Source: Octopus sinensis
Lineage: Eukaryota
Direction of reading: 5' to 3'
Assembly: GCF_006345805.1 (NCBI RefSeq)
Contig: NC_043007.1
Span: 46,066,001-46,130,000 of the forward strand
Length of the DNA stretch: 64,000 bases
Shown: positions 25,829 to 57,968 of the stretch, in pieces
Numbering within the stretch: position 1 is the first letter of the stretch
Layout of the letters: every line of letters starts with the position of its first letter
Notes under the pieces: model-generated
What the model saw: the letters and a program-made list of their open reading frames with translations, nothing else
Database searches by the model: none
What the model was told of the DNA's origin: nothing
Position numbers and translations under genes: made by a program

Positions 25829-25935
25829 TCTACGGACGTACGTTTCGAAATCAAGTTTTTAGGAAAGCATAAGAATTAAATATTAAATATTAAATAATTC
25901 TATCTTACCGAAACTTCTTTTCTCTTCAGCGTAGA
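25829..25935 (-). ncRNA. Type I hammerhead ribozyme, array copy 1
   Basis: Minus strand: TCTACG-CTGAAGA-[G..C ~75-nt stem II]-GAAAC-GTAC-GTC-CGTAGA; intact core, 6-bp stem I. Confidence 0.85.
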
Positions 25936-26427
25936 ATACTATAATCATAAATGATTATATATTGAATTTTGAGATACTAGAAGGCATCAACTCAACTCAG
26001 TATCAGAGCGAGCTAGAATCCGCAACTAGTATCACCGAATTCAATTTGTGAATGAAACGATTGTGTCACCAGCCCCTTCCCACCCGCGTGTAGCCAAAAC
26101 AAGATGCTGTGGTCATCTACTGAGATAAAATATGGTTATCCGTAATAATGAAGGGTGAAATTAATTAATTTGGAATAATTATCAATTACACCAAGTAGTC
26201 TTCGGCATGTAAAAGCCTCATTCGAGGAAAATTTAAGTAATACTAAGCAATAAAAGGTTTAGCAACGAATTGCCTTACCACATACCGAATTTAGAAATAG
26301 CAGTCAAAGGGTTTTAGCTATTTCTTCTACTAAAAAGGAGATCTCAGTAAAAACAGCAATTTGAAGGCAGACACAAACAGGTAAGAGAGAATGAATTGAC
26401 GGCAATCTATCATACATTTTAAAGTTA

Positions 26428-26534
26428 TCTACGGACGTACGTTTCGAAATCAAGTTTTTAGGAAAGCATAAGAATTAAATATTAAATATTAAATAATTCT
26501 ATCTTACCGAAACTTCTTTTCTCTTCAGCGTAGA
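26428..26534 (-). ncRNA. Type I hammerhead ribozyme, array copy 2
   Basis: Same as copy 1. Confidence 0.85.
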
Positions 26535-27022
26535 ATACTATAATCATAAATGATTATATATTGAATTTTGAGATACTAGAAGGCATCAACTCAACTCAGT
26601 ATCAGAGCGAGCTAGAATCCGCAACTAGTATCACCGAATTCAATTTGTGAATGAAACGATTGTGTCACCAGCCCCTTCCCACCCGCGTGTAGCCTAAAAA
26701 GATGCTGTGGTCATCTACTGAGATAAAATATGGTTATCCGTAATAATGAGGGTGAAATTAATTAATTTGGAATAATTTCAATTACACCAAGTAGTCTTCG
26801 GCATGTAAAAGCCTCATTCGAGAAAATTTAAGTAATACTAAGCAATAAAAGGTTTAGCAACGAATTGCCTTACCACATACCGAATTTAGAAATAGCAGTC
26901 AAAGGGTTTTAGCTATTTCTTCTACTAAAAAGGAGATCTCAGTAAAAACAGCAATTTGAAGGCAGACACAAACAGGTAAGAGAGAATGAATTGACGGCAA
27001 TCTATCATACATTTTTAAGTTA

Positions 27023-27127
27023 TCTACGGACGTACGTTTCGAAATCAAGTTTTAGGAAAGCATAAGAATTAATATTAAATATCAAATAATTCTATCTTAC
27101 CGAAACTTCTTTTCTCTTCAGCGTAGA
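27023..27127 (-). ncRNA. Type I hammerhead ribozyme, array copy 3
   Basis: Same core and stems I/III; small changes in stem II only. Confidence 0.83.
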
Positions 27128-28164
27128 ATACTATAATCATAAATGATTATATATTGAATTTTGAGATACTAGAAGGCATCAACTCAACTCAGTATCAGAG
27201 CGAGCTATATATAATACATACATATATATATATATATATATATATATATATATATATATATATATATATATATATATATATATATATATATATATAGAGA
27301 GAGAGAGAGAGAGAGAGAGAGAGAGAGTGAGAGAGAGAGAGTGAGACAGAGAGTGAGACAGAGAGAAAGATGGAGAGATGGTGAGTGAAAGAGGGAGACA
27401 GAAGTTGTAAAAACCAAGAAGCAGAAGTTCTATTATGGAGAAATTTCTTAGTTATATATTTGTATACTAGTATTTATGTCAATTTCTGCTGTCCATATAC
27501 TATTTCTCGATATGCGCCATTAGCCTTTATAAGTTATTCAGTGTGGGAGGTGCTAACAAATGAAACGTGTTTCTTTCTTCCATATGGAAAACATTAATTC
27601 AGGCTGGATGTTGACAGTTACAGTTCGGGTTTAACCATACTCCGTCAAGCGATTTAACTCCATCACCTAAATACTGGCTTCATCACTCTCCAATGAATCA
27701 CTTATATAAAGTATATGCATATATATATATATGTATATATATATATATATATATATATATATATATATATATATATATAATTATTATATATATATATAAT
27801 ATATATATAATATATATATATATATATAGTAAAGTGAGTAGCTACATCAATGTGGCAGATGAATGTTACCACTAGTTTAATCCAAGGCGGATTCTCTGCT
27901 AGCTGGTTTTCCGTGCAAGCCCCTTTATATACAGTATCAGGGGCAGCGGACCTCTACTAACTCCCAACTATTGTGCTTATATACAATATATCGCTAGCAG
28001 GGGGAGCAAATCTCAACGATACTCCGGCAATTTTGCTTAATCACACACACACACACACACATACATACATATATATAATATATATATATATATATTATAC
28101 AGTGGGGAGGGGGAAATAAATATTTGTACATGTCAAAATTCTTTATTTATTTAATTTCTAATGG

Positions 28165-28722
28165 ACATAAACGGGATATACGAATACTATATTTGCAGAG
28201 AAGATTCACAAAGAAGATCGTCTCTTTGCAACAGCTCAGCTACTGGGAAAGGTTGAAACAGCTAAGATTCTACTCCCTGGAGAGAAGACAGGAGAGGTAT
28301 GCAGTAATATATATCTGGAAGATCCTGGAAGGAATTGTGCCAAATTTTGGCATTGAAAGCTACACCAATGCCAGAACGGAACGACACTGCATAGTGCTAA
28401 AGATCTCAGCAATGCCATCACGCTTCAGGACCAGTTACTGCAACAGCCTGGGTTTCAAGGGTCAACGGCTTTTTAATATTCTCCCCAAGAGTCAGAGGAA
28501 TTTGCACAAAATAAATGTTGCGGTTTTTAAATCAAAGCTGGACTTCTTTCTGTCGAGAGTCCCAGCTGAACCTACCACACGGCAAGAGGTGCAAATGAGG
28601 GAAGCTATATCAAAATCCTTTCTTCACCAAGTGCCACATATTTGAGGAGGCTCTTAGTAATAACAGTGTAACACAAGTTGGCGGTGCATCAGCATGGCCG
28701 CAGCTCTGATCTGAAACTAGAA
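28165..28722 (+). mobile_element. 3' end of a CR1/L2-group LINE
   Basis: LQRRFTKKI..LSYWERLKQLRFYSLERRQERY..WKILEG..LFNILP..FKSKLDFFL is the typical post-RT region of CR1/L2-group ORF2; tail GGCGGTGCATCAGCATGGCCGCAG. Confidence 0.85.
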
Positions 28723-28759
28723 ATATATATATATATATATATATATATGTATCTATATA

Positions 28760-55600: not shown

Positions 55601-56399
55601 TTTCTACGAAATATTTGTTTGTATAATACATTCTGATTTTACCAAACACGTACCGACAAAAGTTATGCACTAAATAAAATAATATTGTCTCTCTCACTCT
55701 GCTGTTTCTGAGTGTCTCTTTCTCTGCCTCTCTCCCTATATATATACACACACACACACACATATATGTATATATGCACTCACACACCCATATATATGTA
55801 TATATATATATATATATATATATATATTATATATATATATATATATCTATATATATACGTATATACATATATATGCATATATATACACATATATATATAT
55901 ATATATACATATATAAATAGGTACGTAGGGAGGTAAGGAGGCAGGTTGTTGTTTACTTGTGTATATCTACATAATTAGAGGCATAGACGTATAAATGTGC
56001 ATATATGTATGTATACGTGTTTAAATGTATGCATATATATATATATATATATATATATATATATAATATATATATATATATATTATATTTAAAAAAAAAA
56101 CGGAGAAAAAAACAACAGCGTGAGGGTGTGGTACATGTAAAGAATTAATAAGATGTTCAGAGAAGGTAAGAAAGAGTTGTTGTTTTACGTTTCGAGAAAA
56201 GCTCTTCTTCGGAAACAGGAGACATAAGGAAGTCGAAAAGCAGGGAGGAGGAAAAAAAACGCGAACAGTCCACGTATAGTTACATTTTGGAATGACCGGA
56301 AGTAGATAGACAAAGAAGAAAATTCCCCCTGAGACGGGAATGTTTAGTAACTGTTTGTATATGTGAGTATATAAATATGCACACACAATGCATCAGTAT

Positions 56400-56610
56400 T
56401 GATCGAAACTCCGCATTTGAAAGAGATTGAAAGAGGTGGAATCCGTTGGTGCAAATGAAGAGAGTACGGCGGGTGTGGCAGCACTTCTCAGCCATGCGTT
56501 TGATTGGCTTCCTTGGTCATATTGTCGATAAGAGGGAGACCGTTGTTGTGCATCAGAAGAATTCCATGCTGACGATTAGGTCTTTTCTCTTGGATAGCCG
56601 TATTGAGTCA
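56400..56610 (-). pseudogene. Mariner transposase fragment (different subfamily)
   Basis: LNTAIQEKRPNRQHGILLMHNN..NMTKEANQTHG*EVLPHPPYS..TNGFHLFQSLSNA. Confidence 0.78.
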
Positions 56611-56644
56611 TCTACCCCTTACTTCAGTGAAAATTATTAGAAAG

Positions 56645-56726
56645 GAACTACACGCGTTTCTGTATTGGAAGATCATGATATATGTAATCATCAGATTTAT
56701 AATTCTACCAACACATCTTCAGGTTC
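56645..56726 (-). ncRNA. Intact type I hammerhead ribozyme
   Basis: GAAC-CTGAAGA-TGTGTTGG..CCAATACA-GAAAC-GCGT-GTA-GTTC. Confidence 0.8.
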
Positions 56727-57639
56727 ATTTTTCAAAATATAGTTCAGCTAATATAGATCATCATAAAAATTAAGCGTGAAATTAAAAATTAAAAATAGAC
56801 ATTACAAAAGTAAGAATTAACTTATTAATTTTAAATATATATTAGGATACATATATCAAACATAGAAGGCTAAATATAGAATATCAAGTATAAAACTATA
56901 TACTAGAATGAAGAGGTCTGTGATTAGATGTAAAAAATACAAATCCACTTGTGATAGGCCAAGATATCATTCAAAATGGCAATTAGAGTAAGTGAATATA
57001 GCAGAGCACTATGAGAATTTATAGGTGATTAGTTCTTAGAGGGGTAATCCACCTATGCATAGTTTAAATGAAATTATCTGCTATTATTATTGTCTATCCA
57101 ACTATGTTGAGGGATATATATATATATATATAATTTGTTATAATGTAATATTTCATAATATTTAATTAATCAATTTATTTAATTATTTATATAATCTATT
57201 CAACTACTCTAGTTGAACCACTGTATAGCTTCAGTTGCTTCGGTTTAAAGTTTAAGAGGAGATGTGGTGTAAAGTTGGAGTATTATTCGATCGAGTAGAA
57301 TTTTGCTAACACACATATATCGGAGTTGGAGGGCAGATGAAGCGAACGGAGGGTTTCACTGCGAAGTTAAGTTTTCCTTGTGGTCCTTCAAGCTGATATG
57401 GGATGGGCGAGGCGTGGAAGGTTCACCTGCTCGCCTACTGTTGAATAATAAAGGAATTTTTTCAGCTTACATTTCTTCGGTTTCGAAAATTATCCACAAT
57501 ATTCCGTCTCAATAAAGCACTCTTGTTTCTGGAAGTTGCTTTTTTAAAATATTTATGACGGATTGCTCGAATCTAACTTTCTTCTTGCACCTCGATCCCT
57601 CGATCTTACATTTATATATCAATTGTTCCTAATCTAGTT

Positions 57640-57800
57640 AGTGCTAACTGTGTGGAAGACACGGAAATGGAGAAAATGTTAAACTTGTCGCTTAAGGTTA
57701 TCCGACATCCCGACAAAAACCAGTGCATCAAACTTATTATTCACGCTACAAACGAATTGATTCTACAGATGCGATGGGAAGCTTTCTTCTCCCTCCACAA
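57640..57800 (+). pseudogene. Penelope-like ORF N-terminal relic
   Basis: TEMEKMLNLSLKVIRHPDKNQCIKLIIHATNELILQMRWEAFFSL resembles the LGLKF.P..MRWKAFF start of Penelope ORFs. Confidence 0.5.
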
Positions 57801-57874
57801 CTCTATTACGTTCTCTACACCTTCTGATTGAATGTATATCTTTGCGGCAATGCCACCTTTAATCTGATCAAGAT

Positions 57875-57968
57875 ATCCTTGGCCTGAAGAGTAGCCGGCG
57901 GTATACACCTCACTTGAACTTTACTACTTCTGAGGTTCTGCTCGCTATGAAACATATGTAGCCCGGAT
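57875..57968 (+). ncRNA. Intact type I hammerhead ribozyme
   Basis: ATCCTTGGC-CTGAAGA-GTAGC..ACCTCA/TGAGGT..GCTAT-GAAAC-ATAT-GTA-GCCCGGAT. Confidence 0.8.

What the first reader, a model, noticed from the sequence alone, without database searches (positions are those of the whole stretch)
25829..57968. About fifteen hammerhead folds from roughly nine unrelated families in 32 kb, mostly with palindromic stem III
Seen: candidates at 25829, 26428, 27023, 29007, 31062, 32601, 33161, 36899, 39822, 40295, 42573, 45754, 56182, 56645 and 57875. Flanks are unrelated between families, yet stem III is a perfect or near palindrome in most: ACGUACGU, ACCUUGCAGGGU, AUUGCAAU, ACAUGUGU, ACGU, ACAGCUGU, ACGCGUGU, ACAUAUGU (31062, ACUCAGU, is an exception). 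Known: palindromic stem III allows double-hammerhead cleavage. Inference: the covariation argues for selected dimer-dependent cleavage and a very high genomic ribozyme density.
Basis: partly seen in the sequence, partly recalled or inferred. Interest (0 to 1): 0.75.

Follow-up and report, generated by a model that had tools for sequence, protein, structure and literature searches.

The report
Hammerhead ribozymes of Penelope-like retrotransposons
These are real hammerhead (self-cutting RNA) motifs left by ten families of repeated mobile elements, four of them visibly Penelope-like jumping genes; their palindromic third stem likely lets two copies pair up to cut, a known design, and about half of the copies here are broken relics.

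Summary
All 15 candidates are type I hammerhead motifs; a 16th (45051) was missed. Controls confirm them: 6-7 descriptor hits against 0-1 in shuffles. They belong to ten dispersed repeat families. Four adjoin pieces of a Hydra-clade Penelope-like (PLE) ORF, and a full element elsewhere carries the 31062 ribozyme at both ends of a 708-aa ORF. A 599-bp tandem family (25829) fits a retrozyme. All ten family majorities have a hammerhead core and self-complementary stem III; 31062 is a deleted copy, not an exception. Two tandem 599-bp units are predicted to fold as a double hammerhead. Only 7 of 15 window copies are intact, so selection likely acted on the mobile parents. Genome-wide estimate: about 52,000 (31,000-81,000), one per 50 kb; the window is about 6-fold denser. 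PLE hammerheads with palindromic stem III and dimer cleavage are published, including an octopus Hydra element (PMC4209133, PMC3088659, PMC8557442). The deviations are a long stem II (31-81 nt, missed by Rfam) and fixed U4C in one family. The scan noted this before on other DNA of this genome. Cleavage is untested.

The parts
25645..27204 (-). Family A: 2.6 head-to-tail units of 599 bp inserted in (TA)n, non-coding, retrozyme-like
   Evidence: 218 matches among the 40 candidates scored, full-length ones 94-100% identical; same 3' end as a 12-unit array on C3 (L200)
25829..25935 (-). Family A hammerhead, intact; stem I 6 bp, stem II 76 nt, stem III ACGUACGU
26428..26534 (-). Family A hammerhead, intact; predicted partner of 25829 in a double hammerhead
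27023..27127 (-). Family A hammerhead, intact; stem II 74 nt
29010..29096 (-). Family B hammerhead with a 1-nt insertion in the core; stem III of 12 nt; in a ~400-bp repeat with inverted and tandem partners
29806..30279 (+). Linker and GIY-YIG endonuclease end of a 5'-truncated Hydra-clade PLE (one stop codon), 87% identical to a full 708-aa ORF
31062..31122 (+). Family C hammerhead at the 3' end of that PLE; family core carries U4C; this copy has C3U and a 2-nt stem III deletion
32600..32662 (-). Family D hammerhead, intact core; stem III AUUGCAAU
33160..33221 (-). Second family D copy 560 bp away; core intact, stem I decayed
36333..36590 (+). Degenerate Hydra-type linker/endonuclease remnant upstream of the family I hammerhead
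   Evidence: E about 3e-4; also in 9 of 14 other family I loci
36899..36976 (+). Family I hammerhead, core broken (G5A, A9U); family majority intact
39822..39856 (+). Family E minimal hammerhead (stem III ACGU, extra base after A9), intact
40295..40330 (-). Family E inverted partner copy, G12A
42573..42678 (-). Family H hammerhead, A9U; stem II 81 nt; old family with few copies found
45051..45128 (-).
45754..45788 (+). Family E copy, stem III broken
56181..56217 (-). Family E-related minimal hammerhead, U4C, weak stem II
56645..56726 (-). Family F hammerhead, intact; stem II 55 nt; 3' end of a Hydra-type PLE 3' region (56613-57212)
   Evidence: Hydra-type endonuclease in family loci L094, L097/L108 (one place), L100; RT in L101
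57667..57828 (+). Short frame resembling the Hydra ORF N-terminus (RWK-like motif), directly upstream of the family G hammerhead; seen in the window copy only
   Evidence: 35% over 37 aa, pairwise E 6e-6
57881..57963 (+). Family G hammerhead, intact; stem II 58 nt; stem III ACAUAUGU

Best explanation
The motifs are type I hammerheads in the ends of ten dispersed repeat families, four of them joined to pieces of a Hydra-clade Penelope-like retrotransposon ORF and the rest likely non-coding derivatives copied by such elements; the palindromic stem III is predicted to pair between two ribozymes of one tandem transcript, which would cut out a unit-length RNA. Shown: the motifs, the families, a full element with the 31062-type ribozyme at both ends of a 708-aa RT-endonuclease ORF, fixed 3' ends in (TA)n, variable 5' ends, and tandem and inverted partner copies. 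Inferred: transcription, dimer folding, cleavage (perhaps helped by the element's protein), possible circularisation, and copying of the non-coding families by the Hydra enzyme. Selection likely kept core and palindrome in the transposing lineages; single genomic copies then decay.
For: Full element L197: HHR, ORF 4087-1964, HHR, repeats 98.8% alike over 245 nt. The ORF has RWK, DKT, CxCX5C, CxxC..E and N..CxH, the Hydra diagnostics of PMC8557442 section 11. The 31062 ribozyme was found in 18 of 19 other loci fetched by the endonuclease (two of them partial). Hydra-type ORF remnants lie upstream in families F, I and G. All 10 family majorities have a complete core and a self-complementary stem III. 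Core positions differ from the family majority in 43 of 1585 cells (2.7%), against 436 of 7465 (5.8%) in stem II and 527 of 6221 (8.5%) in flanks (9 families, CpG excluded). Two family A units fold by MFE into the double hammerhead (z -6.7 against 20 shuffles); inter-copy stem III pair probabilities are 0.82-0.97 against at most 0.01 for the monomer hairpin. Monomer stem III hairpins are unfavourable (+2.1 to +4.8 kcal/mol) in 8 of 10 families and impossible in E. Same design in print: PMC4209133, PMC3088659 Fig. S8 legend, PMC8557442 File S2.
Against: No cleavage or expression data. No autonomous parent found for A, B, D, E, H, J: scattered Hydra-type hits in single B, D and E loci were not tied to the ribozyme, and J loci had none. 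The decayed family D pair is not predicted to form the shared stem III (probabilities 0.0). Family B could form a monomer hairpin, though in context it scored 0.01. In the anole PLE, the ribozyme cleaved only with protein, was not needed for insertion in vitro, and no RNA reads ended at its site (PMC11167929). cells are not independent, and flanks may include DNA outside the elements.
Confidence: 0.8

Rival explanations
1. The ribozymes cut as monomers or with protein help, and the palindrome serves something else, such as a two-fold binding site for a dimeric PLE protein or RNA dimerisation for template switching.
For: The anole PLE ribozyme is protein-assisted and its protein is predicted to be a dimer (PMC11167929). 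Family B has a stable 4-bp hairpin option. Most genomic copies are solo.
Against: The palindrome sits exactly on helix III, beginning at A15.1 and ending at U16.1, in all 10 families. Family B's majority holds a U-G pair that works only on the ribozyme strand as RNA. Dimer cleavage is published for this class (PMC4209133, read; Lunse 2016, seen only as cited in PMC6765202).
Confidence: 0.12
2. The host has kept these copies as working regulatory ribozymes, and the local cluster is functional.
For: The window is denser than the genome sample: 7 in 64 kb against 19 in 1 Mb (Poisson P 3e-4).
Against: The window was chosen for its density, and 3 of the 7 come from one insertion. 6 of 15 copies have broken cores or stem III. 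They lie on both strands, and each belongs to a dispersed repeat family.
Confidence: 0.04
3. Chance matches in AT-rich, microsatellite-rich DNA.
For: Rfam finds none; the relaxed search also gave two unconvincing hits with a core mismatch (16211, 50553).
Against: Shuffled and reversed controls give 0-1. Genome-wide patterns give 23,243 against 2,310 and 17,294 against 126 reversed-pattern matches.
Confidence: 0.01

Closest known systems
Hammerheads of Hydra-clade PLEs, including Hydra-1_Obim of Octopus bimaculoides (Craig et al. 2021, PMC8557442; passages, section 11, supplement parts 1-2 and searches seen)
   Same: 3' type I HHR, (TA)n insertion, element under 3 kb, protein motifs; stem III a 9-10-nt near-palindrome with changing letters in all 26 Hydra-clade rows of File S2; family C's stem III equals that of Penelope-3_HM.
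   Different: Stem II here is 31-81 nt in 9 of 10 families against roughly 10-25 nt in those rows; most stems III are even-length full palindromes; family C has U4C fixed. Two spike-moss PLE-X1 rows in the same file also have a long stem II.
Minimal PLE hammerheads (Cervera and de la Pena 2014, PMC4209133; parts 1-2 of 4 read)
   Same: Family E matches: no helix III beyond a palindromic 4-mer, extra base after A9, mostly solo copies, inverted pairs 100-700 bp apart, many diverse families per genome, low activity seen only for dimers.
   Different: The other nine families have longer stems III (8-12 nt) and long stems II.
Metazoan non-LTR retrozymes (PMC7229834, passages; bioRxiv 10.64898/2026.07.22.740005, part 1 of 5)
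   Same: Family A: non-coding tandem units with one type I HHR each, dispersed arrays of up to at least 12 units, proposed PLE origin.
   Different: Unit of 599 bp against 220-390 bp in the coral, mussel and axolotl cases read; circular RNA not shown here.
Repeat-type dimer hammerheads of Aedes and Nematostella (Perreault et al. 2011, PMC3088659; passages and Fig. S8 legend)
   Same: Palindromic stem III/loop III tabulated across ribozymes as a sign of dimers; U4C noted as a natural, slower variant.
   Different: Not tied to PLEs in the passages seen; two tested examples did not cleave.

Membership tests
Type I hammerhead ribozyme | Conserved core C3 U4 G5 A6 N7 G8 A9 / G12 A13 A14 / A15.1-U16.1 / H17 | tested here: met
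   10 of 10 family majorities (C and about half of E with U4C), 7 of 15 window copies exact with stems
Type I hammerhead ribozyme | Three helices with stem I open | tested here: met
   stem III is predicted stable mainly between two copies
Type I hammerhead ribozyme | Site-specific self-cleavage | not testable with these tools
   no assay
Type I hammerhead ribozyme | Match to an Rfam hammerhead model at gathering score | tested here: not met
   0 matches; long stem II and absent stem III loop are the likely cause
Type I hammerhead ribozyme | Loop 1-loop 2 tertiary contact | not tested
   several families show an internal loop after 4-5 bp of stem II; contact not analysed
Hydra-clade PLE (family C) | Single ORF, RT then C-terminal GIY-YIG; RWK, DKT, CxCX5C, CxxC and CxH, no CCHH | tested here: met
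   read in the 708-aa ORF of L197/L198; GIY-YIG weak Pfam hit for the window piece, none for the full ORF
Hydra-clade PLE (family C) | Under 3 kb, pLTRs with HHR, (TA)n insertion | tested here: met
   HHRs 2,578 bp apart flanking the ORF; TA runs beside the window copy
Hydra-clade PLE (family C) | Placement in the Hydra clade by RT phylogeny | not tested
   no tree built
Hydra-clade PLE (families F, G, I) | Hydra-type ORF joined to the ribozyme | tested here: inconclusive
   remnants only: endonuclease upstream in F and I, N-terminus in the window copy of G
PLE-derived non-autonomous element (families A, B, D, E, H, J) | Shared end sequence with an autonomous PLE | tested here: inconclusive
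   no match to the one full element held; other PLE families not fetched; fixed 3' ends, TA targets and inverted partners seen
Non-LTR retrozyme (family A) | Tandem non-coding units each with an intact type I HHR | tested here: met
   3 of 3 in the window, 12 units in L200
Non-LTR retrozyme (family A) | Expressed as circular RNA | not testable with these tools
   only assembled contigs of runs not on record as RNA

The most novel reading that the evidence does not exclude
This genome holds tens of thousands of a structurally distinct long-stem-II subclass of dimer hammerheads (at least 17,000 pattern matches with 40-70-nt stem II) that Rfam misses. A young 599-bp family folds cleanly into a double hammerhead and may cleave fast without protein, make abundant circular RNA and ride active Hydra elements. 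The stem II extension may be the handle for the Hydra reverse transcriptase.
Probability: 0.2. Interest if true: 0.55.

Novelty: new variant of a known kind. Interest (0 to 1): 0.3.

Why it matters
It gives a natural covariation set (eight different perfect palindromic centres in 100 listed matches) and a clean substrate, the two-unit family A RNA, for the open question of what PLE hammerheads do. It also shows that standard models undercount ribozymes in such genomes. The pairing of PLEs, palindromic stem III and dimers is already in print, so the surprise for a specialist is modest.

Tried and rejected
Rfam at gathering threshold: 0 hits. ARAGORN: no tRNA in the window. The repeat finder was swamped by microsatellites. 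Sequencing runs: no RNA holder listed; contigs of four runs covered family A but cannot show strand, ends or expression, so neither is used as evidence. Lunse et al. 2016 is not held and is known only through PMC6765202 and recall. Literature searches: (poorly aimed). 'Hammerhead ribozyme' plus 'octopus' gave 5 papers, 4 listed; only Craig 2021 bears on octopus PLEs. An Octopus vulgaris repeat paper has 0 occurrences of 'ribozyme'. Supplements of PMC4209133, PMC7229834 and the bioRxiv paper were not seen and may show long-stem-II examples. Naiad identity of the endonuclease was considered and rejected: it is C-terminal and has the Hydra motifs. Relaxed hits at 16211 and 50553 were dropped (core mismatch, poor stem II). 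A Hydra endonuclease remnant at 47652-47930 (-) had no descriptor hit downstream. Scrambled (SGC) hammerheads were not searched for. Only 20 or fewer best-matching loci per family were aligned, so family tallies lean to copies like the window's.
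Full report
Setting. The window is G000:C11:46066001-46130000 in a 2.72-Gb genome. It is 34.6% G+C and rich in microsatellites. From this make-up, and from the likeness of its PLE protein to the published Hydra-1_Obim (compared by eye), I take it to be an octopus-like genome; that is inference.

Observation. All 15 coordinates hold a type I hammerhead layout with the stems III quoted, and a 16th lies at 45051-45128. Rfam finds none. A strict descriptor gives 6 hits in the window, 0 in 40 of 40 local dinucleotide shuffles and 0 in the reversed window. 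A second setting gives 7 hits, with 0 or 1 in 50 shuffles. Seven of the 15 copies are intact, two doubtful and six broken.

Families. Searches of the own genome show that every motif belongs to a dispersed repeat family: A (25829, 26428, 27023), B (29007), C (31062), D (32601, 33161), E (39822, 40295, 45754, with 56182 related), F (56645), G (57875), H (42573; 6 matches), I (36899) and J (45051). Only the best 35-40 DNA candidates were scored per search and 20 or fewer loci fetched. The families do not align with each other, except E with 56182 and one 25-nt chance-level G/H hit. In alignments of 4-30 distinct copies per family, all ten majorities have a complete core and a fully self-complementary stem III of 4-12 nt; stem II is 12 nt in E and 31-81 nt in the window copies of the others. 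The breaks in window copies are private. The 'exception' 31062 has lost 2 nt from the family's 9-nt near-palindrome. Family C has C at position 4 in all 17 copies (15 with the exact CCGAAGA core); family E is split about evenly between C4 and U4.

What carries them. The ORF at 29884 has a weak GIY-YIG hit and at least 150 close relatives in the genome. Full copies encode a 708-aa RT-endonuclease with RWK, DKT, CxCX5C, CxxC and CxH, the diagnostics of the Hydra clade (PMC8557442 section 11). In L197 and L198 the family C ribozyme stands on both sides of this ORF, 2.6 kb apart. Hydra-type endonuclease remnants precede the F ribozyme in three other places (L094, L097/L108, L100) and the I ribozyme in the window and 9 of 14 other loci. 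A Hydra-like N-terminus precedes G in the window. For A, B, D, E, H and J no parent was found. Several show PLE habits: fixed 3' ends at TA runs, variable 5' ends, and tandem or inverted partners. The window's family A array and a 12-unit array on C3 end at the same base before (TA)n.

Selection and dimers. Core positions differ from the family majority in 2.7% of cells, against 5.8% in stem II and 8.5% in flanks (cells are not independent). This fits purifying selection among transposing lineages followed by decay. With only the outer two pairs of stem III required, 14 of 23 real hits and 0 of 6 shuffled hits pair through the centre. In the genome-wide pattern with four free central letters, 84 of the first 100 listed matches are self-complementary (G-U allowed), with eight different perfect tetramers (by eye; many are copies of a few families). 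Monomer hairpins are unfavourable in 8 of 10 families, impossible in E and favourable only in B; in sequence context they score at most 0.12. Two family A units fold into the double hammerhead as the MFE structure (z -6.7; inter-copy pair probabilities 0.82-0.97). The decayed D pair does not. Only A and D have a same-strand partner of their family in the window. All of this is prediction; nothing was assayed.

Density. In 100 fixed-position 10-kb stretches the descriptor found 19 hits in 14 stretches, against 0, 0, 0 in three shuffles and 1 reversed. That extrapolates to about 52,000 (Poisson 31,000-81,000, too narrow given clustering), one per 50 kb. Whole-genome patterns give 23,243 matches against 2,310 controls for stem II of 9-30 nt, and 17,294 against 126 for 40-70 nt; these patterns do not test stems I and II. 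The window is about 6-fold above average, partly through one tandem insertion, and it was picked for this. Published counts are more than 6,000 in a coral and 126,247 in axolotl (PMC7229834), and about 9,000 in Xenopus (PMC4209133).

What is known. Cervera and de la Pena 2014 describe PLE hammerheads with palindromic or absent helix III, many families per genome, mostly solo, weakly active only as dimers. Perreault 2011 tabulates palindromic stems III as a sign of dimers and notes U4C as a slow natural variant. Craig 2021 File S2 lists 26 Hydra-clade rows with 9-10-nt near-palindromic stems III of differing sequence, one from octopus. Frangieh 2024 found the anole PLE ribozyme protein-assisted and dispensable for insertion in vitro. 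PMC6155905, PMC10085705, PMC6765202 and PMC13282606 were seen as passages only. Earlier notes of this scan reached the same reading on other DNA of this genome; I had written mine down before.

Verdict. What differs from the sources I saw is the long stem II in nine of ten families, the fixed U4C in an active-looking family, and the sheer number. New variant of a known kind; interest 0.3.

Noticed in passing
window 5404-9202 (-): Near-complete non-LTR retrotransposon in two frames (RVT_1 E 6.5e-26, weak zf-RVT, then a PD-(D/E)xK-like end by eye) between long TTC/TTA runs; looks like a Dong/R4-type element (label recalled).
   Followed up: partly
window 47652-47930 (-): A further degenerate Hydra-type endonuclease remnant with no hammerhead hit downstream.
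   Followed up: partly
families A, C, D, J, just 3' of stem I: Stem I is followed by UAA or UGA, and stem II often breaks into an internal loop after 4-5 bp. This may keep the canonical loop 1-loop 2 geometry with a hairpin added on top (the URH motif is recalled, not found).
   Followed up: no
family G loci L112-L130 and window 57426-58057: Most copies run about 300 bp past the ribozyme to a fixed TA-bordered end, while several inverted partners stop about 35 bp after the cut site: two preferred 3' ends.
   Followed up: partly
family A, window 26130 and 26240 equivalents: Two preferred 3' ends joined to TA runs, about 110 bp apart.
   Followed up: partly
G000 listings: Many other families carry C at core position 4, so U4C recurs across families in this genome.
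   Followed up: no
window 23066-24157 (+), 28079-28645 (+), 51951-52478 (-): Broken remnants of other mobile elements: RT pieces (weak RVT_1 hit for the first) and a mariner-like transposase end (by eye; no Pfam hit).
   Followed up: no
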